This document shows positions 1,256 through 34,920 of a stretch of DNA of 40,035 bases, piece after piece. This stretch comes from a virus: the UHGV virus genome UHGV-0090445; one strand, written 5' to 3'. Positions within the stretch are counted from its first letter, which is position 1. Every line of letters begins with the position of its first letter. Below the pieces are notes generated by a model. That model saw nothing but the letters and a program-made list of their open reading frames with translations. It did no database searches and was not told where the DNA came from. Both the position numbers and the translations under genes were made by a program.

Positions 1256-3238
1256 TTAAGCGCTTGCAATAAAATCCATTTCGAATAGCTGTATTCTATC
1301 GTCTGTTATGTAGGCCTCGAAATATGTTCCATCATATGATGATAACTTAACTCCATTTATATGACCAGCATATGTATCATTGTGCATAATAATTAACTGC
1401 CCGTCACCCTTTCCTACATATTTGCACGTCCATGTCCCATTTGTTTTTGTGCTGTTAAGTAATGTAGTCGTTGACTGCACTCCATCCTTACATATTATAC
1501 CTTTTGCTTCATTTCCTATATACCTTATTCCAAAGTAATTTCCTGATTCCACGGAGCCACAAACTATAAAACCATTTAGTGAATTAACTCCAGATGTAAT
1601 TCCATAAGCAACAGCAAAACCAAGATAGTTAAATGTTTCATATTTTAATACAAGCCGTCGCTCTCTTTTATATCTTACAAGTGCCGTACCGCCAACAGTC
1701 CCCGCTCTTACAACTAATCCACCTTCTGCATAATATTCCAACCCTGAACCTGAGCCGGTTACTTTATTGGTAAATTTATCATAGTCTTGAAATTGAGTAT
1801 GGTGCCTTGTTGTCGCAAGCGTAAATGAAGATGTTACTCCATTAATTGATTTTGTAGCTGTTTCAGTTATAAGCCCTACCTGTACTCCATCAACCCTACT
1901 TTGCGCAACTTTACCAATGCACATACCAAAATCATTACCGATAATGATACCGCCTATCGAAACAGCAACCCAACTTTTTAGTGTGCCAGACATTGGCTTT
2001 AGCGCCTGTCCTATTCTTGTTGAGTTTGAGCTTAATACTCCTCCATGCTTTACAACCATCCCTTTATCATTAATTTCGTTACCGAAATCGCATGATTCAA
2101 CTGATATTGTACTATTATATGCCTCAATACACTTATCAACTCCTACCCCATTGAATGAACAATCATTAACAGCGCCAGATGTGCATCCATAAAATTCAAC
2201 TGAAGCATTTTCATCACTGTGTGTTCTATTTGTAAAGTTTAAAGCGTGCAACTCTGGGCTGTATGGTGTGCCTCCGCATGAAAATACCTGGGCTGACCTA
2301 ACATTAACTGTTGTTCTGTCGGTAGTTCTACTTACTATAACAATGTTTGCTTGTTGCGATGCGCCAGGTGGGAATAGAGGTGTGCACCCCCTCTTGCTTC
2401 TGATTACTATGTCTTCATCATAAGTTCCTGGTGCAATTGAGATAATAATTCTCTGCCAATAATTATTTGGGATATCGTCAATTGCTTCCTGAATGGTCCG
2501 GTAATCTTCCGGAACCATGAGTGTTACAGGCATCGTGTAAATACCCGCCACTGTTGACGAGTCAACGCCAAATGGATGGATGTAACCGCGATACGGATCA
2601 TTACCCCCGATAGTATTGATAAATCCTTCAATGCGTACTTTTGCTGAGTTAGTGTACAGATAACCACATTCACCAATATCTACGCGGAACTTCGCCGGGA
2701 TAGTCAGATCTTCTGTAAATTCCACTGGAACGTTGACAAAAACTCGTCCGTTACCAGAGGCGATGGCGCGTTTGAAAGCCTGCGTGTAGTCTGGAGCTGC
2801 TGGGTCTCCTGGCTCAACAAATGCGCGTAGGTCATAAAATCTTTCCTGCTGACCACCAGGGATTAAAAAACCTTTATCTCCTTCAAGCTCCTGCCTTAAC
2901 TGATCAGGGTCATACTTCAATACGTTTGGATAGTAAAATTGCTGTACGCCATATGCATCATATACAGCCATAGAATGGCCTTGCACAGTTACGAATTTGG
3001 CAATCTGTCCGTTATATACAGGATAACCAGCAGCGTTAATGATTATTGGTTGCGAAACAGGAACATGAGAACCATCTTCGTTTTCTACATAAACCTGAAT
3101 CTGGTTTTCAGGATTTACCGGGTCAGTGTCAATTTTACCGATATAAATTTTGCCATTGGCTACCGCTTTAAAAGAACGAGCCATAGTGAAGAGTTGCGAA
3201 GGCATCGATACGATCACATTGGCTGTAATGTCTGTCAT
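1256..3238 (-). CDS. Tailspike protein, P22 gp9 family (conserved N-terminal head-binding domain, divergent receptor-binding body)
   Basis: 660 aa; N-terminus [11 protein letters not shown]...[35 protein letters not shown]...[12 protein letters not shown] closely matches the remembered P22 tailspike head-binding domain; remainder is not P22-like. Confidence 0.9.
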
Positions 3239-3642: not shown

Positions 3643-3864
3643 TTAGTTATCAAAAAGTCCGTACGTTTCTTCTTCTTTAGGTGTAAGGGGAAGAATCTCT
3701 ACTCTATCTATAGATACCTTTTCAATGTACCCATGAGGTCTACTTAAAATTAAAGCTCTCTCATGCCACAGAACTCCAAGAATGTGATACCTTCCAGCAT
3801 CGCCTTTTACCCTGGCTCTTCCTTTGATTCTTGGCGGCATAATGCCATATTTTTTCTTTGCCAT
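3643..3864 (-). CDS. Hypothetical protein (73 aa), translationally coupled to upstream antirepressor gene
   Basis: ORF from track; its start overlaps the stop of the 3864..4643 ORF (ATGA); basic N-terminus MAKKKYG; no family recognised. Confidence 0.4.
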   Translation of the reverse strand: MAKKKYGIMPPRIKGRARVKGDAGRYHILGVLWHERALILSRPHGYIEKVSIDRVEILPLTPKEEETYGLFDN

Positions 3865-4592
3865 TATGCAACATTACTCCCATGAATCAGGTGTTGTAGT
3901 GCTTTAACACCCTCCGCATTGTAGCGGAATGCTTCCACCTGTTTGCTTGAATGCGCAGATTTATCCAAGAAGAACTTCCCGTACTGCTCAGTTTTGAGGT
4001 TGTTTGCGTTAGCAATGCGACCAATCTTGTTGGCCGTTACTCCAAGCTGCTCTGCAACCTCCCCTGCTGAGTAGTAATGCTCTTCTATTGCCGGAAGAGG
4101 TATTGCATTAAAACCAACGAGCGGGTTGATTATACTTGCTGCCGCTGTCTGCTTTGCCTCCGGCGCAAGATTTGGCATCAGATCGAACAGATTGGTAACA
4201 GCTTCAACCGTCATTTTCAATGTTCGCGCTTGACGATACTCAACAAGTCCACTCGCTGATTTACCGCTTTTAATGTGCGCTTCTTGCATACTTTCAAGTT
4301 GGTCTACCAGTGAGCGGCGAACGGCTTTTGACTCGCGAGCGGCAACTCGCAATGCTTGCTTGATTGACATCTCAATGATAACCATCGAAGTTTTGTTCGC
4401 TTTTTGCACTACACTTTTTGTGTAGTGCTCTCCATCCAATTCATCTTCAATTTTCTCGATGAATTTGTTATTACGAACCTCCGGCTCACCGCACTGTCTA
4501 CGAGCCTGATTTACCATCTCAAGCAGGCGCTGGCTGTCAATGGTTTTATCCGTGACAACGGATCCGATGTTTGCTACATTCTTAAAAGTCAT
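3864..4592 (-). CDS. Antirepressor-like protein (KilAC/ANT-like C-terminal region)
   Basis: Track ORF 3864..4643; likely start is ATG at 4592 (MTFKNVANIG...) with SD AAGGAA 6 nt upstream; C-terminal motif EVAEQLGVTANKIGRIANANNL resembles the KilAC/ANT region of the nin-region Rha protein in this window. Confidence 0.6.
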   Translation of the reverse strand: MTFKNVANIGSVVTDKTIDSQRLLEMVNQARRQCGEPEVRNNKFIEKIEDELDGEHYTKSVVQKANKTSMVIIEMSIKQALRVAARESKAVRRSLVDQLESMQEAHIKSGKSASGLVEYRQARTLKMTVEAVTNLFDLMPNLAPEAKQTAAASIINPLVGFNAIPLPAIEEHYYSAGEVAEQLGVTANKIGRIANANNLKTEQYGKFFLDKSAHSSKQVEAFRYNAEGVKALQHLIHGSNVA

Positions 4593-4661
4593 TAGGCATT
4601 CCTTATGTGGTAGTAAGGGTGTGACATAGGCCGCCAGCAGCACACTGGCGGTTTTCTTTTT
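4587..4661 (+). ncRNA. Candidate sar-like antisense RNA covering the ant2 translation start
   Basis: Plus-strand promoter-like -35 GTGACA (4552..4557), 17-nt spacer, -10 TACATT (4575..4580); strong intrinsic terminator CCGCCAG-cagcaca-CTGGCGG + TTTTCTTTTT at 4631..4661. No plus-strand gene precedes it; transcript would be antisense to the ant2 SD and start codon. Confidence 0.35.
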
Positions 4662-4680: not shown

Positions 4681-5403
4681 TCAATGAATCCATTCCTCGC
4701 CGCGAAGTTTTGCCAGCATTGGCTGAGCGTTCTTTACGACAAAATTGTTGGTATCAAGATTCTTCATTTCACGAAGAAGTGATTTCTTGGTTTCTTCTGA
4801 CATGTAGCGAGTCTCATATGCAATATCGTAAATCCTTCCTGAAAGCTCAGAACCAATTTGCTTCATTCCTGGGTAGATGTGTTTGCACATTTGTTGACTC
4901 TTCTCCATCCACAATTGTAAGTAGCAGAGATTAACCAGTTCTTCGTCAGTAAACTGTTTTGCAATCGGTGAGCATTCTGCCTGCCGATCCAAAATATCCA
5001 GCACCCAGCGGCGGAACTCTTTGGCCTTGGGCGTAGAAGCAAACATCGCCACCAAGTGAGCGCCTCGGAGCGAGTAAACTCTGACCGATTTGTTACGTAA
5101 GCTATTGTTTATTCCGTTGACCTTCATATTGAGGGTCAATGACATTGAGTCGGAAAATTCGTCAGCATTACGGGCATAAATTTGGCTGATGGCATCAGTT
5201 TTTTTATAGCCGAGAGCCTTAGCTAGTTCGGCGGAGGTGAACCAGATAGACCCGCCCTCTGTTACAGGGTTAAAAGTGAATCCTTGGAAGTTATAATCTG
5301 ATTTTGCTACAATATTCATGTTAGTTTCCTTGGGTACGGTTACTGACATAGAGGCCCGGTTTGTGTTCGCGCACTTCCGGGCTTCACTATTTTTACTGGG
5401 CAT
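4681..5403 (-). CDS. ant: Antirepressor with Bro-N domain
   Basis: Bro-N-like region FTFNPVTEGGSIWFTSAELAKALGYKK...VRVYSLRGAHLVAMFASTPKAKEFRRWVLDIL; start overlaps the Arc stop (coupling); position matches P22 immI arc-ant. Confidence 0.8.
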   Translation of the reverse strand: MPSKNSEARKCANTNRASMSVTVPKETNMNIVAKSDYNFQGFTFNPVTEGGSIWFTSAELAKALGYKKTDAISQIYARNADEFSDSMSLTLNMKVNGINNSLRNKSVRVYSLRGAHLVAMFASTPKAKEFRRWVLDILDRQAECSPIAKQFTDEELVNLCYLQLWMEKSQQMCKHIYPGMKQIGSELSGRIYDIAYETRYMSEETKKSLLREMKNLDTNNFVVKNAQPMLAKLRGEEWIH

Positions 5404-5585: not shown

Positions 5586-5640
5586 ATGACATCACCGTGA
5601 TGTCATGACACCATTATGATGCCATTGCTCATAATGTCAA
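5586..5640. promoter_or_regulatory. immI control region: perfect 10-1-10 palindromic operator plus divergent Pant-like and Pmnt-like promoters
   Basis: ATGACATCAC-C-GTGATGTCAT at 5586..5606 immediately upstream of arc; minus-strand promoter -35 TTGACA (complement of 5635..5640), 17-nt spacer, -10 ATAATG (complement of 5612..5617); plus-strand -10 CATAAT near 5630..5635. Confidence 0.5.
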
Positions 5641-5689
5641 TATGATGCTACTGTGTTTTTTATTGCTCATATGCCTTGCGAATAAGAAA

Positions 5690-5941
5690 ATGTCAGAAAA
5701 AGACGAATCAAATTTCATAGAAAGATTTACGGTTAGAATGCCTGACGGCATGCGTAGTGCTATTGCGGAAAGGGCTAAACGAAACGGTCGATCTATGAAC
5801 TCAGAGATAGTTCAAATTCTTGAGGATGCGTTATCATCTGACGTCTCATCAGTAGACAAATCATTAGATCTTAAACAAATAAAATCTTTACTTGATAAAA
5901 TTTCCAACGAGTTACTGGATAGAATCCCAAAAGACACATAA
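5690..5941 (+). CDS. mnt: Mnt/Arc-family ribbon-helix-helix repressor, divergent from arc-ant
   Basis: Internal start at ATG 5690 of ORF 5642..5941; FTVRMPDGMRSAIAERAKRNGRSMNSEIVQILEDAL is an RHH motif; placement and orientation match P22 mnt. Confidence 0.7.
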   Translation: MSEKDESNFIERFTVRMPDGMRSAIAERAKRNGRSMNSEIVQILEDALSSDVSSVDKSLDLKQIKSLLDKISNELLDRIPKDT

Positions 5942-5991
5942 CAAAACATTATCATCCGGTGTTCTGCTCAAAACTAAGGAGTGGCTACTCA

Positions 5992-6630
5992 ATGAAAAAA
6001 ATAGATATATATAGCGATACATCAGCCTATGTCATAGGCTCATTGGGTTTTTTAATTTTTTTTGTTTGGCAGTACCAGTCACTATCTCCAGGATGGCGAT
6101 TTTTTGGGATGTCTTTGATATCACTTGGTGCAGGAATAGCAACGCAGGTGTTGATGTATCTCTTTAATGGATGGCTCTCAAAAAGAGTTGAGAAAAAAAG
6201 AGCTACTTCAATATGTAGAAGCCTAGCTATTCCAGAAGACTCTACAGATCAGGATGATATTGCAAAATGTTGGCGGTATATGATTGCAAGATACTCAAAT
6301 GAGTTACTGGCAAACAGACTGTCCGACTTAATCGGGGTCGTAGTTACCTCTGTTGGAACAATCATCAGTATAGGGATATCAATTTGGTATGTCGGGATGA
6401 TTGTCTATTTTGTTTGGAATAGAGACTTCAATGAACCTTCCCTTCTTTTTATACCTTTATTTTTCAGGGTATTAGCATTCATATGTGAGTTATTGCTCTC
6501 TTTTTTCTGCAATGTTTTGTTCAACAGATACCCAGGTGAAGCAAGAAAGTTTAATAAAAACTATGATGAGTTAAGGAGAACAGATCCTTTTCTATCAAGT
6601 AAAGAGTTCCGCGATTCCATTCGCAATTAA
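5992..6630 (+). CDS. AT-rich predicted 4-TM inner-membrane protein at the SieA position (candidate superinfection exclusion protein)
   Basis: Start ATG 5992 with SD AAGGAG (5977..5982); four hydrophobic segments; AT-rich by eye; sits between mnt and the gp16 homolog as sieA does in P22. Homology to SieA not verifiable here. Confidence 0.65.
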   Translation: MKKIDIYSDTSAYVIGSLGFLIFFVWQYQSLSPGWRFFGMSLISLGAGIATQVLMYLFNGWLSKRVEKKRATSICRSLAIPEDSTDQDDIAKCWRYMIARYSNELLANRLSDLIGVVVTSVGTIISIGISIWYVGMIVYFVWNRDFNEPSLLFIPLFFRVLAFICELLLSFFCNVLFNRYPGEARKFNKNYDELRRTDPFLSSKEFRDSIRN

Positions 6631-6651
6631 CAACATCCATGACATCAACCC

Positions 6652-8517
6652 TTAGCGATCAGTTGCATCATTGGCAAGTATTGGTCTGATGGCATTTGCG
6701 GCGTTATTCAGCGCTCTTTCATAAGCTGGCGTTCCAGCTTTAGTGTTTGCCAGACGTAAGAGCGCATTCCTAGCCATAGGGCTTTCATAAACCCTCGACA
6801 TAAGGCCAATCCCTGTTTCCCCAGCCAATAGCGCGCCTCCGGTTTTTAGGTTACCAATAACCCTTACCAAAGGCGCGAGTGTCATGCCAGTCTTCGTCAC
6901 AACATTAGCCTCAGATGCTCTTTTGGTAGCATCGAGAATAGATAACATCCCCTCTATCTCTTTTCCGTTCTTCCCACCAAATACAGTTTTAAACACCTGA
7001 CCATTTGCTTGTTTTTGCAGCTTGCCAAGCTCGGTCATCATTTTCTGAGGGCTGTCACCTACCTTGTCAGCTATTTTGCTGATATATGCCGCCCTTAGCA
7101 TGTCTTTACCTTTTTGATCGAGTTTCCCGTACAATCGAGCTATATCTGACCCATATTGTCCATACACAATGGTATTTACAGCCTCGGGAGTTAAATCTCC
7201 TTTGTTTAGAACGTTTTTAAGGCGCGTTTGAGTTGCATGTGTTGCCATTTTTGCATAATCAGCTTTTCCCGCCCTCCATGCTGAAGCATCTTTTGGGCTA
7301 AGTCCTTTCGCTATAGATTTACTAAGGCTATTGGTTAGCGAGTTGTAGACCCTGTCGACCATTGTTTGCGACATTGATGGCAGAACTGTACGATCGCCTT
7401 TTACGTCAATGCGGAACTGAGTTCTCAGCTTATCAAGTAACTCAAAGGCATCATCTCCATTTGTTATCTCCTGAATGGCATTCTTATAATCATTAAGCGC
7501 AGAAATGGTCTGGGTGTCAGAAACACCTTTAAGTTTCCCAAGTTCGTTTACTGCTCCGTCGATAGCTCTTATGGCGCCACTTGTATCAACTGGCTTTCCA
7601 ACCATTCTTCCTGACAGGTTGTTTAGTTTTGACTTGGCTAACGATTTTTCCCTTGCAACGCCTGACTTTAGACTATCAACGACTACAGATGGATCGTAGT
7701 CGCCGTATTTTTCGGTGAAGCGATTAACAAGCTTGGTTCTAGCATCCTGCTGTGCGGCTCTCATTGGTCCAGTCCCAGCTATGACTCCTTCTGAGTAACC
7801 CTGCAGTTGATTGCCAAGTTTTGTTTTTGGAGGAACTACATCCGATGTCATAACTGGTACATCTGCCGCAGCGGCACGCTTGAGCAATTGCTGATCTGCT
7901 GGTGATATTTCGCCACGAACAGCAGTAATTCCACGCCCTATTCCCTTTGCTGCTGCGGAAAGAACCCCCTGAGCGGCAAGGTTAACTCCGGCATTTTTAG
8001 CTGCATTTTGTGCGAAATCGCCTTTCTGATTTGCGGCTTCTGCCAGTGATCCAATAGCCATGCTTCCTGCCGTTCCAACTCCTGGAACTAAATACCCGCC
8101 AATTGTTTCTCCAGCTTGAGCGTAGGGGTCTGTCGGTCGATCGACTGGACGATAGACATCATCCAATACTTTTGGCCCACCAAGCCCCTGGCTGATTGCA
8201 TTAATCAGACTTGCGCCACCCTGCAATACGTCAAATGGTATGTTTACCAGACCACGACCAGCCTGCTCTGCAATTTGCCCTGCACTTTGACCACCAGTGA
8301 GCCAATCGCCAGCTTGTTGCATCAATGATGGTTCTTCTTTCTGCTGCTGAGTCGGAGGGTATGCTGCATAAAACTGATCTCTTGCTTCAGCCCATTTGTC
8401 ACCAGCCTTAGGAGCAACAACCTCATCAAAATATTGCGCTTGAGCCTGTGCTTTCTGTTCTTCAGTTAACGCCTGATACTGTGGAGAGGCGATAACATCT
8501 TTCCATGCTTTAGCCAT
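6652..8517 (-). CDS. Ejection (DNA-transfer) protein, P22 gp16-like
   Basis: 621 aa (P22 gp16 about 609 aa); gene order gp7-gp20-gp16 ahead of immI/tailspike; Ala/Gly-rich. Confidence 0.8.
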   Translation of the reverse strand: MAKAWKDVIASPQYQALTEEQKAQAQAQYFDEVVAPKAGDKWAEARDQFYAAYPPTQQQKEEPSLMQQAGDWLTGGQSAGQIAEQAGRGLVNIPFDVLQGGASLINAISQGLGGPKVLDDVYRPVDRPTDPYAQAGETIGGYLVPGVGTAGSMAIGSLAEAANQKGDFAQNAAKNAGVNLAAQGVLSAAAKGIGRGITAVRGEISPADQQLLKRAAAADVPVMTSDVVPPKTKLGNQLQGYSEGVIAGTGPMRAAQQDARTKLVNRFTEKYGDYDPSVVVDSLKSGVAREKSLAKSKLNNLSGRMVGKPVDTSGAIRAIDGAVNELGKLKGVSDTQTISALNDYKNAIQEITNGDDAFELLDKLRTQFRIDVKGDRTVLPSMSQTMVDRVYNSLTNSLSKSIAKGLSPKDASAWRAGKADYAKMATHATQTRLKNVLNKGDLTPEAVNTIVYGQYGSDIARLYGKLDQKGKDMLRAAYISKIADKVGDSPQKMMTELGKLQKQANGQVFKTVFGGKNGKEIEGMLSILDATKRASEANVVTKTGMTLAPLVRVIGNLKTGGALLAGETGIGLMSRVYESPMARNALLRLANTKAGTPAYERALNNAANAIRPILANDATDR

Positions 8518-9812
8518 TAATCACCCCATAGTGAAGAAAAGTTACTGCCAGTAGTAGATTGTTGCCCTGGCATATTCTGAACCGGCTCCTGATAATCAAA
8601 CTGTTTTTTAACAGTGCTCAACTTGCTTTCAAGCTGATTTCTAATCTTTCCGATAGAGTCACGAAAAGCCTTTTCACTCATTTTGGGGCTTAGGGCACCA
8701 ACCGCATCGGATAATTTTTTACCCTCAGCATCTGAAAGAGCGCCCATACCCTTCAGGGACTGCACCATAGGAAGGAATGTTTGAGCTTTAAAGGTGTCGA
8801 GCCTTGCTTCAAAGTTAGCCGCATCAGAGCCAGGAACTGTCGGAAACGCTGAGCGAATTCCTACTGCTTTTGAAAGGCCGGGGCTTTGCTCTATCTCGTT
8901 GAGAGAATCAAGCGCGGTGCTGAACGTATCAACTGCACCCTGAGCGGAGGCCTGCCTGTCAGCGCGGGCTATGTCAGCCTTTTGCCGAACATCTGCCTGT
9001 TTCTGTTTTAGCTCTTCAAGCTTTAACTGATTGCTTTCTCTGGCTATCTGTCTGTCCAGAGCCTTTTCTTGTAATTCTGCTCTTTGTATTTCTCGGGAAA
9101 GAGCAGCATTCTGTGCGCTGATGTTCTGTCCACGTATCTGGATGTCCTGACCTCGAGCTGTTAGTGCTTCTCCGGCCTGATTGCTGCGGATTGTCTCTGC
9201 CAGCCTGCCTCGGTCAATCTCACGACCAGCCATCTTGTCCTGAACATTGAAGTAGTCAATCGGACCGAGAGCAGCCATCCCAAGGTGATCAACAAACTCA
9301 CCAAATCCTGAAGGATTCTGCTGATACATCTGAGCAACGCTGTTAGGGTCAACACCTACGCGAGTCAGTTCCTTGGCGTTGTTTTGCAGCCATGATTGCA
9401 TTGCTTCTGGAGACGAGGCAGCAAGGCGTGCGCCAGCCGCTAAGGTGCCGATAGAATTGCGCTGGTCTTCATCAATGAATCCCATGCCTTTACGAACGGA
9501 TTCAATCTGGTCTGGATATTGAGTAGCCAACTGACGCAAAGCACCGCGATCACCAGACGCATAAGCATTAGCGTATGCCTGCTGAAATTCTTTCTGCCGC
9601 TGAGCCTGCTTTTCCTGCTGAAACACCCCCGCAATACCTGAAAGGCCTTGCAAAGCAGTCAGCCCAACATTGTTAGCGCCTGAACGCTCAATATCATTGT
9701 TCTGCCTGATAAGCTGAAGCGTATTGCCGATGTCATTTACGCTCGGAGCGTTTGAGTTGACGCCGCCGATACCAGCCAACAATCCGCCGTTTGTTCCTTG
9801 CCAAGTAGCCAT
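8517..9812 (-). CDS. Ejection protein, P22 gp20-like
   Basis: 431 aa; synteny between gp7 and gp16 homologs; start overlaps stop of upstream gene. Confidence 0.8.
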   Translation of the reverse strand: MATWQGTNGGLLAGIGGVNSNAPSVNDIGNTLQLIRQNNDIERSGANNVGLTALQGLSGIAGVFQQEKQAQRQKEFQQAYANAYASGDRGALRQLATQYPDQIESVRKGMGFIDEDQRNSIGTLAAGARLAASSPEAMQSWLQNNAKELTRVGVDPNSVAQMYQQNPSGFGEFVDHLGMAALGPIDYFNVQDKMAGREIDRGRLAETIRSNQAGEALTARGQDIQIRGQNISAQNAALSREIQRAELQEKALDRQIARESNQLKLEELKQKQADVRQKADIARADRQASAQGAVDTFSTALDSLNEIEQSPGLSKAVGIRSAFPTVPGSDAANFEARLDTFKAQTFLPMVQSLKGMGALSDAEGKKLSDAVGALSPKMSEKAFRDSIGKIRNQLESKLSTVKKQFDYQEPVQNMPGQQSTTGSNFSSLWGD

Positions 9813-24746: not shown

Positions 24747-25105
24747 GCGTTCTCCAGTTCGGTGATTTTTATTCCAAGCCGTCCGCCTGGTACTTTCACG
24801 CCACGAATTACGCGAATGTCATCGAATTGCTCGTCATCTTCCGCAAATCCGGCGTGGATAAGGGAGTCGAGTAAACCTTTCAGGATGTTATCGAGGTCGC
24901 GGCGGCGGGAGTCTGGAACGTCTGCGATGACTTTGATGCGGAGTCGTGATTTGGTGAAAATGTCTAACTTAAGTTGGCGGATGATTTGCTGAACGTCTTT
25001 TCGGCATTTCTGGCCTTTATCGCTTATGTAATATTGGCTTCCCCGTCTTCGCCAGTAGGTATTCAGCGACGGTGGGTACGGAAGTGTGAATCTGTATTCT
25101 GCCAT
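24743..25105 (-). CDS. rusA: RusA-type Holliday junction resolvase
   Basis: 120 aa; FTLPYPPSLNTYWRR...DSRRRDLDNILKGLLDSLIHAGF...GGRLGIKITELE matches the RusA pattern. Confidence 0.85.
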   Translation of the reverse strand: MAEYRFTLPYPPSLNTYWRRRGSQYYISDKGQKCRKDVQQIIRQLKLDIFTKSRLRIKVIADVPDSRRRDLDNILKGLLDSLIHAGFAEDDEQFDDIRVIRGVKVPGGRLGIKITELENA

Positions 25106-25630
25106 TTATCCTCTCCCATGATTATGGTGATAGCCCAATCGTGATTCCGCCAATTTTCTGGCATTAACGGCTAGAGATATGTCATCGTATAATCCAAGAA
25201 ATATCTTTTTATTATCACTGTTTATATATGCACCCCACTTTTTATTCTTCTTATAGTAGGCAACACCAATTACTCCAGAGCGATTATTAATAGGCTTTTT
25301 TCTGTTCCTTGAGTTCTGTTTATCATCTACAACGCGCAAATTGCATATTCTGTTATCGCTTTTAATTCCATTTATGTGGTCAATTTCCCCATCAGGTTCA
25401 CTTCCATAAAAGGATATCCATGCGATTCTATGAGCTCGACAAACTTTTTTATTTACAGATATACGAACGTATCCTTTTTCATCTATAGAACCAGCAATCT
25501 TACCGGCATATGTTGAATTCCAGCACTCTCTTACACTTTCTCTTCTCTTGTATATAAACAAACCTGTTTCGCTATTATATTCATACAATTCATTGATTTC
25601 TTTTTGTGTTGGATATCTTTTACCGTTCAT
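25106..25630 (-). CDS. HNH homing endonuclease (HNH plus AP2-like region), AT-rich insertion
   Basis: 174 aa; HRIAWISFYGSEPDGEIDHINGIKSDNRICNLRVV (HNH motif), followed by GVIGVAYYKKNKKWGAYI (AP2-like); AT-rich by eye; wedged between ybcO-like and rusA. Confidence 0.8.
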   Translation of the reverse strand: MNGKRYPTQKEINELYEYNSETGLFIYKRRESVRECWNSTYAGKIAGSIDEKGYVRISVNKKVCRAHRIAWISFYGSEPDGEIDHINGIKSDNRICNLRVVDDKQNSRNRKKPINNRSGVIGVAYYKKNKKWGAYINSDNKKIFLGLYDDISLAVNARKLAESRLGYHHNHGRG

Positions 25631-25917
25631 GGCTTAATCTTCCCCTCCTTCAGCAGTATCGCCTGCGTCCTGATCACGCCTTCGAGGTGGTAAAGTCTGG
25701 CGTCTTTGTTGTCGAGAATCATTGTGCGTCGGTCGATTTCATCGTGACACGCGCTACAAGCCCATGCGCCGATCAGGTCGTCAGGCTTCATTCCAGTTCC
25801 GCAAATTCCAGCCATCCGGTAATGTGCCAGAACTGTGGTTTCAGGATTACCATTGCATACTCCGTAAATACGTACCTGGCATTCTCTGCCGCGCGCTTCT
25901 TTGCGTAGGTTAGCCAT
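25627..25917 (-). CDS. YbcO-like (DUF1364) nin-region protein
   Basis: 96 aa with Cys/His cluster (CQVRIYGVC...AHYR...WACSACHDEID); resembles remembered DLP12 YbcO family; neighbours RusA. Confidence 0.65.
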   Translation of the reverse strand: MANLRKEARGRECQVRIYGVCNGNPETTVLAHYRMAGICGTGMKPDDLIGAWACSACHDEIDRRTMILDNKDARLYHLEGVIRTQAILLKEGKIKP

Positions 25918-32442: not shown

Positions 32443-32769
32443 ATGGATGCACAAACACGCCGCCGCGAACGTCGCGCAGAGAAACAGGCTCAATGGAAAG
32501 CAGCAAATCCCCTGTTGGTTGGGGTAAGCGCAAAACCAGTTAACCGCCCTATTCTCTCGCTGAATCGCAAACCGAAATCACGAGTAGAAAGCGCACTGAA
32601 TCCGATAGACCTTACGGTGCTGGCTGAATACCACGAACAGATTGAAAGCAACCTGCAACGTATTGAGCGCAAGAATCAGCGCACATGGTACAGCAAGCCA
32701 CGCAGTGAAATGGGTGTGACTTGTGTTGGTCGCCAGAAAATGAAATTAGGCAGCAAACCACTTATTTGA
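32443..32769 (+). CDS. N: Antiterminator N (lambda-type)
   Basis: Internal start ATG 32443 of ORF 32287..32769; MDAQTRRRERRAEKQAQWKAANPLLVGVSAKPVNRPILSLNRKPKSRVESALNPIDLTVLAEYH... matches remembered lambda N arginine-rich motif and body. Confidence 0.9.
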   Translation: MDAQTRRRERRAEKQAQWKAANPLLVGVSAKPVNRPILSLNRKPKSRVESALNPIDLTVLAEYHEQIESNLQRIERKNQRTWYSKPRSEMGVTCVGRQKMKLGSKPLI

Positions 32770-32777
32770 GGTGATAT

Positions 32778-33029
32778 ATGGAGTTTCATGAAAGTGCGAT
32801 TTGTGATTTTCGCGCTAACGCAAATTCAGTAAAACCACAGCCAATTGCAGTTCTTTTTAAAACAATGGGTGCGTGGGCTGTTTTATGCTTCGCCGCTGAC
32901 GACACTGACGCAAGAATGGCAATAGGCCAAGAGATGGAGATGGACCCGACAAACGATGAATTCATAATTTATGGCGCTCCATCTAATTACTTACTTGATA
33001 CCTGCAACATTTACAACAAGGCTGCCTGA
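32778..33029 (+). CDS. Hypothetical early protein (83 aa)
   Basis: ORF from track immediately after N; no family recognised. Confidence 0.45.
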   Translation: MEFHESAICDFRANANSVKPQPIAVLFKTMGAWAVLCFAADDTDARMAIGQEMEMDPTNDEFIIYGAPSNYLLDTCNIYNKAA

Positions 33030-33069
33030 TGGTGGCCTTTATTTTTGGCATAAACAATATGGGGTAAAA

Positions 33070-33396
33070 ATGAAAGTTTTAATGGTTTATGAAAATGTTC
33101 CAGAGTCGACTGAAATCTATATTTTTGATGCCAATGAAGATGAAGTTAACGATTTGAAATTGTCTCACGGCAATTACACAAATGCTAATTGTGATGAAAG
33201 TATCGAAAAAGCACTATCACGTGTTCTTGTCAGAATTAGTGATCCAGAACATTGTGATGATGATTGGCTTTCTTATTGTGGAGCGGTAAAAACTGATGCA
33301 GGAAAATGGAGTAAAAGTAAAGTTGATAACTCAACTCCAATTATTATGAAAGATAGCGATATTGAAATGGTAATAATAACCGGAATGATTATGTAG
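33070..33396 (+). CDS. Acidic AT-rich hypothetical early protein (108 aa)
   Basis: Internal start ATG 33070 with SD GGGG; about 21 Asp/Glu vs 10 Lys/Arg by hand count; strongly AT-rich codons. Confidence 0.5.
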   Translation: MKVLMVYENVPESTEIYIFDANEDEVNDLKLSHGNYTNANCDESIEKALSRVLVRISDPEHCDDDWLSYCGAVKTDAGKWSKSKVDNSTPIIMKDSDIEMVIITGMIM

Positions 33397-33502
33397 GCTG
33401 CGAATAAGCACTGTGTATTCATTCCAACGAGTGAATACACGGAGCAATGTCGCTCGTAACTAAACAGGAGACGACTTGTTCTGATTATTGGAAATCTTCT
33501 TT

Positions 33503-33529
33503 GCCCTCCAATGTGAGGGCGATTTTTTA
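33503..33529 (+). terminator. Intrinsic terminator inside the pL operon
   Basis: GCCCTC-CAATGT-GAGGGC followed by GATTTTTTAT. Confidence 0.4.
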
Positions 33530-33548
33530 TCTGTGAGGATATGAACAG

Positions 33549-33917
33549 ATGTCAAACATCAAAAAATACATCATTGATTACGACTGGAAAGCATCAATAG
33601 AAATTGAAATCGACCATGACGTAATGACAGAGGAAAAACTTCACCAGATTAATAATTTCTGGTCAGACTCTGAATACCGACTCAATAAACACGGCGCTGT
33701 ATTAAATGCTGTATTAATCATGCTGGCGCAACATGCTCTGCTTATAGCAATTTCGAAAGACTTAAATGCATATGGTGTTGTTTGTGAGTTCGACTGGGAT
33801 GATGGAAATGGTCAGGAAGGATGGCCTCCAATGGATGGTAGTGAAGGAATAAGAATTACCGATATCGATACATCAGGAATATTTGATTCAGATGATATGA
33901 CTATCAAAGCCGCCTGA
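33549..33917 (+). CDS. Acidic hypothetical early protein (122 aa)
   Basis: ORF from track; about 23 Asp/Glu vs 9 Lys/Arg by hand count, acidic C-terminal region EFDWDDGNGQEGWPPMDGSEG...FDSDDM. Confidence 0.55.
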   Translation: MSNIKKYIIDYDWKASIEIEIDHDVMTEEKLHQINNFWSDSEYRLNKHGAVLNAVLIMLAQHALLIAISKDLNAYGVVCEFDWDDGNGQEGWPPMDGSEGIRITDIDTSGIFDSDDMTIKAA

Positions 33918-33951
33918 GAGCGTTTTTAAAGAATACAACGAAGGAGGATAT

Positions 33952-34920
33952 ATGAGTGAAGTAACAGATTTAGTTGTTATTGAAAAAGCAAATGCAATGA
34001 CTGTATTTCAGTCTGCCGACCAGATTGAAGAAATCCTTCAAAGGGTTGAACGTGAAGTTATGTCCTTTGTGCCTGATATCACAACGGCAAAGGGCAGAAA
34101 GGAGATCGCTTCTCTGGCGTATAAAGTTGCGCAGACGAAAACATATCTCGATGGTCTTGGCAAAGACCTTGTTGCTGAACTGAAGGAAATTCCAAAGCTA
34201 ATTGATGCCAACCGCAAGACAGTGCGTGATCGCCTTGATGAGCTGAAAGCCAAGGCGCGCCAGCCTCTTACTGATTATGAGGAGGAACAGGCACGGATTA
34301 AAGCCGAAGAAGAAGCTAAGGCAGCAGCTGAAGCTCTCGCAAAGCAAATTGAGTCTGACCATGAAATAGCGATTTTGATGGATCGCGAATTTGACCGCCA
34401 AAGAGAAGAGGCAAGACTCAAAGCGGAGCAGGAAAAGCGAGAGCATGAAGAACGCTTAAAAAGAGAAGCTGAAGAGAAAGCCAGAGCAGAAGCCGAAGCA
34501 AAGGCAAAAGCCGAAATTGAAGCAGCAGCAAGGAGAGAAGCAGAAGCTAAGGCCGCAGCGGAACGTGCAGAGCGTGAACGCATTGAAGCCGAGCAACGAG
34601 CACAGCGCGAAGCAAAAGAGGCAGCAGAACGAGCTGAAAGAGAAAAGCAGGCGGCAATTGAAGCAGAACGCCGAAAAGCACAGGAGGAGGCTGAACGAAT
34701 CCGGCGCGAAGCTGAAGCAAAAGAGCAAGCCAGAATAGCAGAAGAAAAAAGAATCAAGGACGAAGAAGAGCGTAGAGCAAAGGATAAAGCTCACCGGAAA
34801 GAAGTAAATAACAAAATACTTGCTGACCTTATCAAGGTTGGCGCATCAGAAGATGTTGCTAAAAATATCATAACAGCCATCGTAAAAGGCGAAGTATTCG
34901 CAACAAAAATAACCTACTAA
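33952..34920 (+). CDS. DUF1351-like coiled-coil protein with Ala/Glu/Lys/Arg-rich low-complexity centre
   Basis: 322 aa; conserved-looking N- and C-terminal regions flanking about 130 aa of AEAKAKAE/ERAERE repeats; lies in the recombination module upstream of the annealing protein. Family name from memory. Confidence 0.6.
   Translation: MSEVTDLVVIEKANAMTVFQSADQIEEILQRVEREVMSFVPDITTAKGRKEIASLAYKVAQTKTYLDGLGKDLVAELKEIPKLIDANRKTVRDRLDELKAKARQPLTDYEEEQARIKAEEEAKAAAEALAKQIESDHEIAILMDREFDRQREEARLKAEQEKREHEERLKREAEEKARAEAEAKAKAEIEAAARREAEAKAAAERAERERIEAEQRAQREAKEAAERAEREKQAAIEAERRKAQEEAERIRREAEAKEQARIAEEKRIKDEEERRAKDKAHRKEVNNKILADLIKVGASEDVAKNIITAIVKGEVFATKITY

What the first reader, a model, noticed from the sequence alone, without database searches (positions are those of the whole stretch)
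5992..6630. AT-rich four-TM membrane protein at the SieA position: candidate superinfection exclusion gene
A 212-aa protein with four hydrophobic segments and much lower GC by eye than neighbouring structural genes sits between mnt and the gp16 ejection gene, co-oriented with mnt, exactly where P22 carries sieA. Such moron genes commonly block DNA entry of superinfecting phages or act as abortive-infection effectors.
Basis: inference. Interest (0 to 1): 0.6.

Follow-up and report, generated by a model that had tools for sequence, protein, structure and literature searches.

The report
Known type B SieA exclusion gene

Summary
Window 5992-6630 (+) is an intact 212-aa ORF with a good Shine-Dalgarno sequence and four hydrophobic helices. 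Its GC is 36.5%, against 47.1% for the whole window. It lies between an mnt homologue (same strand) and the convergent gene-16 ejection-protein homologue of a P22-like E. coli prophage, which is the slot that sieA occupies in P22.

The protein is a true though distant homologue of P22 SieA (28% identity, BLASTP E 2e-24; PHROG 7745 'SieA-like', E 2e-20). It carries the family motif FxRYPxEAxxFNK. It is 209/212 identical to the 'type B' SieA of prophage HS1 in E. coli HS. Leavitt et al. (mBio 2024, PMC10883804) expressed that HS1 protein in Salmonella and showed that it fully excludes P22, L, MG40, MG178 and LP7.

The gene is therefore already known. [quoted passage not shown] An abortive-infection role is not supported.

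Side observations:
- The slot is a cassette-exchange site with a shared leader and SD.
- SieA-like proteins reach far beyond P22-like prophages.
- Two invariant motifs both face the cytoplasm.

The parts
5992..6630 (+). sieA (type B) coding sequence, 212 aa, stop TAA at 6628-6630
   Evidence: ORF. 209/212 aa identical to E. coli HS prophage HS1 ECHS_RS01600. PHROG 7745 SieA-like at E 2e-20. 28% identity to P22 SieA, E 2e-24.
5976..5981 (+). Shine-Dalgarno AAGGAG, 10 nt before the ATG
   Evidence: Read directly from the sequence. Conserved in HS1, and also in prophages that carry other cargo in this slot.
5946..5991 (+). Conserved 46-nt leader shared with HS1. It contains a -10-like CATTAT at 5947-5952.
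   Evidence: Homology with HS1 starts at 5946. In HS1 the scan finds TTGATA-17-CATTAT. In the window the corresponding -35 is ATCCCA, 3 of 6 matches, so a dedicated promoter here is uncertain.
6028..6096 (+). Predicted TM1 (residues about 13-35). This is the N-terminal extra helix that distinguishes type B from type A.
   Evidence: Uncharged hydrophobic stretch. AF2 helix 9-26. Absent from P22 SieA in the alignment. The paper describes an extra N-terminal TM in types B and C.
6112..6177 (+). Predicted TM2 (residues about 41-62)
   Evidence: KD at or above 1.6. AF2 helix 33-77.
6295..6336 (+). Conserved cytoplasmic motif S-x5-NR(L/I/V)(S/T)DxxG (residues 102-115), just before TM3
   Evidence: S102, N108, R109, D112 and G115 are invariant across types A and B, a Morganella homologue, a Vibrio homologue and beta-proteobacterial relatives. 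The loop 63-111 holds 10 K+R, so it is predicted to be cytoplasmic.
6325..6411 (+). Predicted TM3 (residues about 112-140)
   Evidence: KD maximum 2.24. AF2 helix 103-142.
6442..6519 (+). Predicted TM4 (residues about 151-176)
   Evidence: KD maximum 2.41. AF2 helix 149-177.
6520..6558 (+). SieA family motif FxRYPxEAxxFNK, here FNRYPGEARKFNK (residues 177-189), predicted cytoplasmic
   Evidence: Sequence. The motif is defined in PMC10883804. R179, Y180, P181, E183, A184 and K189 are invariant.
5690..5941 (+). mnt homologue (83 aa, Arc/RHH repressor), upstream and co-oriented. It probably supplies read-through transcription into sieA.
   Evidence: Pfam Arc at 2e-17. 55% identity to the P22 Mnt RHH domain. 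No terminator-like site between mnt and sieA. In Salmonella, Yersinia and Serratia homologous prophages the mnt-sieA spacing is a 4-nt gap, a 17-nt overlap and a 42-nt gap respectively.
5613..5646 (.). Overlapping divergent promoter-like sites: Pant-like on the minus strand (TTGACA-16-CATAAT, 11/12) and Pmnt-like on the plus strand (ATGCCA-16-TATGAT, 9/12)
   Evidence: Consensus scan. The architecture matches the annotated P22 immI region. These are consensus matches only.
6652..8517 (-). Gene 16 homologue (ejection protein, 621 aa), convergent with sieA. It belongs to the class of protein that SieA exclusion acts on.
   Evidence: 54% identity to P22 gp16. phrog_770 at 1e-242. Escape mutations map to P22 gp16 G532 and P546; here these positions are G544 (conserved) and K558.
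8517..9812 (-). Gene 20 homologue (ejection protein, 431 aa)
   Evidence: phrog_2534 at 4e-216. 50% identity to P22 gp20 over the N-terminal 239 aa only.

Best explanation
The gene is sieA of sequence type B. It is a prophage-expressed superinfection-exclusion gene of a P22-like (Lederbergvirus-like) E. coli prophage.

Its product is a small protein with four predicted transmembrane helices, presumably in the inner membrane, with both termini and both conserved motifs predicted to face the cytoplasm. In a lysogen it stops incoming P22-like podophages after adsorption, at the step where DNA crosses the inner membrane. It most likely does so by interfering with assembly or function of the conduit built from the ejected proteins gp20 and gp16. 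Phages that do not use this ejection machinery are not affected.

What is shown elsewhere: the 99%-identical HS1 protein has the exclusion phenotype. For the type A protein of P22, inner-membrane location, the block of K+ release and DNA entry, and escape mutations in gp16/gp20 have all been shown.

What is inferred here:
- that this 3-residue variant behaves the same way;
- the N-in/C-in four-TM topology;
- that in this prophage the gene is transcribed mainly by read-through from the mnt promoter.
For: Homology:
- 209/212 aa identical to the HS1 protein ECHS_RS01600. The three differences (F38L, L62I, V116I) are conservative and lie at positions that vary among homologues.
- HS1 sieA (EcHS_A0321) is the paper's type B example. 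It fully excluded P22, L, MG40, MG178 and LP7, and P22 hybrids carrying L, Sf6 or CUS-3 ejection proteins. HK620 hybrids escaped partially (PMC10883804).
- Distant but significant similarity to P22 SieA: tblastn 3e-11, BLASTP 2e-24 over 148 aa, PHROG 7745 at 2e-20.
- Cluster relatives are precomputed as Pfam PF26849 'SIEA'.
- The motif FNRYPGEARKFNK matches the published FxRYPxEAxxFNK.

Architecture:
- About 30 extra N-terminal residues carry an extra TM helix, as described for type B.

Synteny:
- The order mnt -> sieA <- gene 16 <- gene 20 <- gene 7 holds in the window, in P22 and in Salmonella, Yersinia and Serratia prophages.

Selection:
- pN 0.138 against pS 0.77 versus the Salmonella homologue.

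Mechanism, from the paper:
- P22 SieA is in the inner membrane.
- There is no K+ release in sieA+ cells.
- Escape mutations lie in the gp16 and gp20 C-terminal regions.
- P22 SieA works in E. coli against CUS-3.
Against: - Nothing was tested on this exact protein or in its native E. coli host. The HS1 protein was assayed only in Salmonella.
- Inner-membrane location and the K+ assay were done for type A, not type B.
- The direct SieA-to-ejection-protein contact is a model. The authors themselves note that it is hard to reconcile with the diversity of both partners, and they offer a host-factor alternative.
- Almost all non-membrane mass and both invariant motifs are predicted to be cytoplasmic. 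That fits poorly with a contact to periplasmic gp20.
- The promoter-like site seen upstream of HS1 sieA keeps only its -10 hexamer in the window, so expression in this prophage is inferred, not shown.
- No structural analogue was found to inform the mechanism.
Confidence: 0.92

Rival explanations
1. The protein is the same SieA with the same phenotype, but the mechanism differs. It does not bind the ejection proteins. Instead it masks or sequesters a host inner-membrane factor, such as YajC, that the distal end of the conduit needs.
For: - The authors raise this as their alternative.
- YajC is required for P22 injection, and SieA-escape mutants still need it.
- Types A and B are only about 25% identical, yet they exclude the same set of phages with very different gp16/gp20. 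That is easier to explain with a conserved host target.
- The two invariant motifs are predicted cytoplasmic.
- SieA-like proteins occur in Polaromonas, Variovorax, Methylococcales and others with no detectable P22-type ejection genes within 8 kb.
Against: - Escape mutations map to gp16 and gp20.
- HK620 ejection proteins confer partial resistance, which shows specificity on the phage side.
- High multiplicity of infection partly overcomes exclusion, which the authors read as titration of SieA by ejection proteins.
- No interaction data exist for either model.
Confidence: 0.25
2. The protein is an abortive-infection or toxic membrane effector. It would depolarise or kill the infected cell after phage entry rather than blocking entry.
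For: It is a small, AT-rich, multi-TM prophage moron, a class that includes membrane-disrupting Abi effectors. Hofer et al. reported slower growth on multicopy overexpression of P22 SieA, as cited in the paper's supplement.
Against: - In sieA+ cells P22 causes almost no K+ release, and lysogeny drops 10^5-fold, which places the block at or before DNA entry.
- A single-copy sieA has little effect on growth.
- PADLOC has no defence-system model that matches.
- The HS1 protein gives the same exclusion phenotype as P22 SieA.
Confidence: 0.03
3. The gene is intact but silent or inactive in this particular prophage. The cause would be either loss of the promoter's -35 element at the mosaic junction with mnt, or the three substitutions.
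For: The TTGATA -35 hexamer seen in HS1 is replaced by ATCCCA in the window. The junction with HS1 homology lies only 46 nt upstream of the ATG.
Against: - The ORF is intact in all 21 E. coli genomes that carry it, at 98.3% nucleotide identity or better.
- The mnt-sieA arrangement is the commoner one. It is conserved with tighter spacing in Salmonella, Yersinia and Serratia, and no terminator lies between the two genes. mnt is a prophage-expressed gene, so read-through is plausible.
- The substitutions are conservative.
Confidence: 0.05

Closest known systems
SieA type B of prophage HS1, E. coli HS (locus EcHS_A0321 / ECHS_RS01600; Leavitt et al., mBio 2024, PMC10883804)
   Same: - 209/212 aa identical and the same length.
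- Same 46-nt leader and SD, and the same convergent junction with the 3' end of gene 16. DNA is 99.2% identical over window 5946-6774.
- Same kind of P22-like prophage.
   Different: - Three conservative substitutions (F38L, L62I, V116I).
- The upstream neighbour differs: here an mnt homologue, in HS1 a helix-turn-helix protein gene, so the region upstream of -46 is unrelated.
- The middle of gene 16 is diverged, 56% identity overall.
SieA of Salmonella phage P22 (type A; NP_059639)
   Same: - Homologous, with 28% identity over 148 aa and E 2e-24.
- Same three core TM helices and the same C-terminal FxRYPxEAxxFNK motif.
- Same genome slot and orientation, convergent on gene 16 with a gap of about 21-22 nt.
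- Same exclusion spectrum where the two types were compared.
   Different: - 212 aa against 164 aa, with about 30 extra N-terminal residues carrying a fourth TM helix and about 16 extra C-terminal residues.
- P22 has orf59a, a terminator and its own annotated PsieA promoter between mnt and sieA. The window has only 50 nt and no terminator.
- Type A is found in sequenced Salmonella phages. Type B is absent from the 50,697 phage records searched.
Other injection-blocking membrane exclusion proteins (HK97 gp15, Tuc2009 Sie2009, TP-J34 Ltp)
   Same: They work alike. All are prophage-encoded membrane proteins that block DNA entry and are overcome by changes in the phage's DNA-delivery proteins, as discussed in PMC10883804.
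   Different: There is no sequence or fold relationship. Nothing of this kind turned up in the PHROG, Pfam or Foldseek results. Those proteins act on long-tailed phages through the tape-measure protein, not on P22-type ejection proteins.

Membership tests
SieA (Pfam PF26849 SIEA / PHROG 7745), type B | Significant sequence similarity to P22 SieA | tested here: met
   PHROG 7745 at E 2e-20. tblastn to P22 sieA at 3e-11. BLASTP at 2e-24, 28% identity over 148 aa. The 99%-identical cluster representative P0001 is precomputed as PF26849, named SIEA. The local Pfam copy lacks this model, so it gave no hit.
SieA (Pfam PF26849 SIEA / PHROG 7745), type B | Conserved motif FxRYPxEAxxFNK after the last TM helix | tested here: met
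   FNRYPGEARKFNK at residues 177-189. The motif is as defined in PMC10883804, and its core is invariant in alignment A5.
SieA (Pfam PF26849 SIEA / PHROG 7745), type B | Type B architecture: about 30-aa N-terminal extension with an additional TM segment relative to type A, and close relationship to HS1 SieA | tested here: met
   Window residue 44 aligns to P22 residue 14. The extra hydrophobic helix lies at about 13-35. 99% identity to HS1 SieA.
SieA (Pfam PF26849 SIEA / PHROG 7745), type B | Located in a P22-like prophage between the gene 16 and gene 9 (tailspike) homologues | tested here: met
   Gene 16 homologue at 6652-8517. Tailspike with P22-type head-binding N-terminus at 1256-3238. The window is about 95% identical to phiv205-1 and CUS-3 over the structural genes. 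The criterion is stated.
SieA (Pfam PF26849 SIEA / PHROG 7745), type B | Integral inner-membrane protein | not testable with these tools
   Only predicted here, from four hydrophobic helices and a positive-inside charge distribution. Fractionation was done for P22 SieA only.
SieA (Pfam PF26849 SIEA / PHROG 7745), type B | Excludes P22-like phages by blocking DNA injection, with escape through gp16/gp20 | not testable with these tools
   The phenotype is published for the 99%-identical HS1 protein. The injection block and escape mutants are published for P22 SieA. This allele has not been assayed.
Abortive-infection / known defence systems (PADLOC-DB) | Match to any defence-system protein model | tested here: not met
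   0 families at E up to 1.

The most novel reading that the evidence does not exclude
SieA may be one member of a much larger family of small membrane proteins that reaches well beyond P22-like prophages.
- A profile search finds 176 clusters at 50% identity.
- Members occur in Vibrio, Aeromonas, Polaromonas, Variovorax, Methylococcales and others.
- Some are fused to DnaJ, trypsin-like or Sel1 domains.
- The only invariant residues form two motifs on the cytoplasmic face (NRxxDxxG and RYPxEA).

If so, the family may act on a conserved host inner-membrane component rather than on the hypervariable ejection proteins.

Separately, the mnt-proximal slot in E. coli P22-like prophages looks like a cassette-exchange site with a shared leader and SD. 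Several uncharacterised small envelope proteins swap in there: a 62-aa protein with two TM helices, a 122-aa secreted-looking protein and a 129-aa protein with four TM helices. These could be alternative exclusion factors.
Probability: 0.25. Interest if true: 0.5.

Novelty: already known. Interest (0 to 1): 0.15.

Why it matters
For this window it matters little. The gene can simply be annotated as sieA (type B), where RefSeq currently calls it 'hypothetical protein' in all 21 complete E. coli genomes that carry it. It predicts that lysogens of this prophage resist other P22-like phages at the DNA-injection step. That is relevant to phage typing, phage therapy and transduction in E. coli.

The SieA mechanism is still unsolved. 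The side observations could help design experiments that discriminate between a phage-protein target and a host target:
- two invariant motifs on the cytoplasmic face;
- a far wider family than the three published types;
- a cassette-exchange slot holding other small envelope proteins.

Tried and rejected
- Local Pfam-A, NCBIfam and PADLOC scans of the protein gave nothing significant. The relevant Pfam model, PF26849, is newer than the local copy.
- Foldseek of the AF2 model against PDB and BFVD gave no match better than E 0.6, so the fold gave no mechanistic lead.
- Megablast against 50,697 phage records found no phage carrying this gene. Only the gene 16 3' end matched.
- The first search for related loci attempt, with a 32-sequence alignment, failed for lack of a conserved stretch. 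A narrower alignment worked.
- The GTG at 5959 was rejected as the start because it has no SD and the homologues and RefSeq use the ATG.
- The terminator-like hairpin inside the ORF at 6024-6040 and the antisense promoter-like site at 6395-6367 are at chance frequency and are not interpreted.
- A 2026 bioRxiv preprint on the in situ P22 translocation channel mentions SieA but could not be opened.
- The abortive-infection reading was rejected on the published K+ and growth data.

Full report
**1. The observation**

The six-frame ORF list shows an ORF at 5959..6630 (+) starting from a GTG. AAGGAG at 5976-5981 lies 10 nt upstream of that ATG, and the GTG has no such site. RefSeq calls the same 639-nt CDS in identical prophages, and every homologue begins at the equivalent Met.

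GC is 0.365, against 0.471 for the window, 0.467 for the gene 16 homologue and 0.495 for the gene 20 homologue. That places the ORF in the lowest 0.8% of all 639-bp windows. The upstream mnt homologue is equally AT-rich (0.361), so the two genes together form the low-GC island.

Kyte-Doolittle analysis gives three clear hydrophobic segments at about 37-58, 110-142 and 149-178. A weaker, uncharged one lies at about 13-35. An AlphaFold2 model built on 12 homologues (pLDDT 76.8) places helices at 9-26, 33-77, 103-142 and 149-177.

Two anti-repressor genes and an arc homologue lie on the minus strand. An 83-aa Arc/RHH mnt homologue is at 5690-5941 on the plus strand. The gene 16, gene 20 and gene 7 ejection-protein homologues then converge on the minus strand. 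The annotated P22 record has sieA in the same place and orientation.

**2. What the gene is**

The protein is a real SieA homologue, not just a positional analogue.
- PHROG 7745 'superinfection exclusion SieA-like' matches at E 2e-20.
- tblastn against 50,697 phage records returns only P22-type sieA genes, at 27% identity and E 3e-11.
- A direct BLASTP to P22 SieA gives 28% identity over 148 residues at E 2e-24.

Searching complete E. coli genomes found the gene in 21 of 5,426, always at 98.3% nucleotide identity or better and always annotated 'hypothetical protein'. One of these genomes is E. coli HS. The HS protein ECHS_RS01600 is 209/212 identical to the window protein.

Leavitt et al. [quoted passage not shown] They name the prophage HS1 gene of E. 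coli HS (EcHS_A0321) as their type B example. They inserted it with 106 bp of upstream DNA into the Salmonella chromosome. It fully excluded P22, L, MG40, MG178 and LP7, and P22 hybrids carrying L, Sf6 or CUS-3 ejection proteins. HK620 hybrids plated at about 10%. E. coli HS has a single copy of this gene, located between the gene 16 homologue and the immI region. I did not see the old and new locus tags side by side, so equating ECHS_RS01600 with EcHS_A0321 rests on that uniqueness and position.

The window protein has the published family motif FxRYPxEAxxFNK as FNRYPGEARKFNK. It also has the type B hallmark of an N-terminal extension of about 30 residues carrying an extra TM helix. The three differences from HS1 (F38L, L62I, V116I) are conservative and fall at positions that vary among homologues.

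**3. Context and family**

The window is a P22-like E. coli prophage, about 95% identical to phiv205-1 and CUS-3 over the structural genes. It has an integrase at 14-1207 and a tailspike at 1256-3238.

Type B homologues of 51-99% identity occur in E. coli, Salmonella, Yersinia and Serratia, and all are precomputed as Pfam PF26849. That model is named SIEA in the gene tables and is missing from the local Pfam copy. In Salmonella, Yersinia and Serratia the order mnt -> sieA <- gene 16 <- gene 20 <- gene 7 is conserved. The mnt-sieA spacing there is a 4-nt gap, a 17-nt overlap and a 42-nt gap respectively.

Against the Salmonella homologue, pN is 0.138 and pS is 0.77, which is saturated. The gene is therefore under purifying selection.

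**4. How it most likely works**

For P22 SieA (type A) the paper shows the following:
- exclusive inner-membrane location;
- almost no K+ release and a 10^5-fold drop in lysogenisation in sieA+ cells, which places the block at DNA entry;
- specificity for P22-like phages, and activity in E. coli;
- escape mutations only in the C-terminal regions of gp16 (G532W, P546S) and gp20 (T338I, T341I, A348T, G350D), with three changes needed for near-full escape.

The authors conclude that SieA interferes with assembly or function of the gp20/gp16 conduit. As an alternative, they propose that it occludes a host factor such as YajC. Type B gave an indistinguishable phenotype. I therefore assign the same mechanism to the window gene.

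The charge distribution adds a topology inference. K+R counts are 2, 1, 10, 1 and 9 for the N-terminus, loop 1, loop 2, loop 3 and the C-tail. This predicts an N-in/C-in topology with periplasmic loops of only about 5 and 10 residues.

Across types A and B, a Morganella homologue, a Vibrio homologue and beta-proteobacterial relatives, only a few residues are invariant. They are S102, N108, R109, D112 and G115, just before TM3, and R179, Y180, P181, E183, A184 and K189, just after TM4. Both clusters are on the predicted cytoplasmic face. That fits action at the membrane or cytoplasmic exit of the conduit (gp16 or a host partner) better than contact with periplasmic gp20. This is inference.

In the resident prophage, gp16 is 54% identical to P22 gp16, with G532 conserved (G544) and P546 replaced by K558. 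Its gp20 aligns with P22 gp20 only over the first 239 residues. Whether this prophage's own virions are excluded cannot be judged from the sequence.

**5. Expression**

P22 has orf59a, a terminator and an annotated PsieA promoter between mnt and sieA. The window has only 50 nt and no terminator-like site there.

Homology with HS1 begins 46 nt upstream of the ATG. In HS1 the scan finds TTGATA-17-CATTAT, with the -10 hexamer inside the shared 46 nt. In the window the matching -35 is ATCCCA, 3 of 6.

Promoter-like sites resembling the divergent Pant/Pmnt pair lie at 5613-5646. I infer that sieA here is transcribed mainly by read-through from the mnt promoter. The tight mnt-sieA spacing in other genera is consistent with this. 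It is not shown.

**6. Rivals**

- An abortive-infection or toxic effector is contradicted by the published K+ and growth data and by the absence of any PADLOC match.
- A silent or inactive allele is unlikely, given the intact and conserved ORFs, the purifying selection and the conservative substitutions.
- The host-factor variant of the mechanism remains open.

**7. Comparison and novelty**

The gene meets every defining SieA type B feature that can be tested by sequence. Membrane location and phenotype rest on the literature. It is already known and is not a new member or variant.

The fold search gave no analogue.

Other membrane exclusion proteins, HK97 gp15, Sie2009 and Ltp, work in a similar way but are unrelated.

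**8. Things seen in passing**

(a) Cassette exchange at this slot. Related E. coli prophages share the window's DNA up to 5981, that is through the SD, and again from 6662, but carry different ORFs in between.
- One carries an unannotated 62-aa protein with two TM helices.
- One carries a 122-aa phrog_2651 protein with a signal-like N-terminus.
- One carries that 122-aa protein plus a 61-aa protein and a 129-aa protein with four TM helices.

(b) A wider family. A profile of type B sequences finds 176 clusters at 50% identity in 1.84 billion representatives.
- Most are about 165-175 aa with the motif LTGRYPGEAK..RK.
- Some are fused to DnaJ, trypsin-like or Sel1 domains.
- Named sources include Vibrio, Aeromonas, Morganella and Serratia.
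- Genome hits include Polaromonas, Variovorax, Methylococcales, Rubrivivax and Ectothiorhodospiraceae, with no P22-type structural genes detectable within 8 kb. In the Polaromonas contig the downstream neighbours are housekeeping genes.

(c) PGAP labels the mnt homologue a C-terminally truncated pseudogene in several genomes. The 83-aa ORF is nevertheless the same length as P22 Mnt.

**Verdict**

The gene is the already characterised type B sieA, and interest is low.

Noticed in passing
window 5946-5981 and 6662 onward; loci L004 2082-2305, L005 2082-3101, L006 2082-2513: The sieA slot behaves as a cassette-exchange site. Related E. coli P22-like prophages are 97-99.9% identical to the window up to 5981 (through the SD AAGGAG) in all three loci. 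They match again from 6662 at 97% in L004 and L005 and 87% in L006. In between they carry different cargo: an unannotated 62-aa ORF with two TM helices (L004 2089-2277), a 122-aa phrog_2651 protein with a signal-like N-terminus (L006), or that protein plus a 61-aa protein and a 129-aa protein with four TM helices (L005). None has a known function, and they could be alternative exclusion factors.
   Followed up: partly
proteins P0013-P0162; loci L013-L017: The SieA-like family is far larger than the three published types. There are 176 clusters (50% identity) at E up to 1e-3, mostly 3-TM proteins of 165-175 aa with the motif LTGRYPGEAK..RK. Some are fused to DnaJ (P0041), a trypsin-like protease (P0079) or Sel1 repeats (P0073). 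Members are present in Vibrio, Aeromonas, Polaromonas, Variovorax, Methylococcales, Rubrivivax and Ectothiorhodospiraceae, with no P22-type ejection or structural genes detectable within 8 kb.
   Followed up: partly
window 6295-6336 (residues 102-115): A second invariant motif, S-x5-NR(L/I/V)(S/T)DxxG, lies just before TM3. It is conserved across all SieA types and distant relatives, alongside the published RYPxEA motif. Both are predicted to lie on the cytoplasmic face.
   Followed up: partly
window 5690-5941; L003 3291-3443, L004-L006 1791-1943: RefSeq/PGAP annotates the mnt homologue as a C-terminally incomplete pseudogene (153 nt) in several E. coli genomes. The ORF is nevertheless an intact 83 codons, the same length as P22 Mnt, with 55% identity over the RHH domain. 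This is probably an annotation artefact.
   Followed up: partly
window 6024-6062: A terminator-like hairpin, AGCCTATGTCATAGGCT followed by a T-rich run, lies inside the 5' end of sieA (codons 11-24) and is conserved in HS1. The T-run coincides with Phe/Leu/Ile codons of TM1, and the count of such sites is at chance level, so it is probably not functional.
   Followed up: no
window 32641-34210, 24911-25830 and 1001-2480: These are the other low-GC islands, with GC minima of 0.351, 0.369 and 0.357. The first holds three ORFs of unknown function next to the N-like antiterminator (phrog_4658, phrog_646, phrog_1376) and may be further morons. The second holds an HNH endonuclease next to RusA. The third is the tailspike receptor-binding part.
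   Followed up: partly
window 3864-4643 and 4681-5403: Two different anti-repressor genes sit in tandem downstream of arc: one with BRO-N plus P22_AR_C domains, and one matching phrog_1726. P22 has a single ant gene.
   Followed up: no
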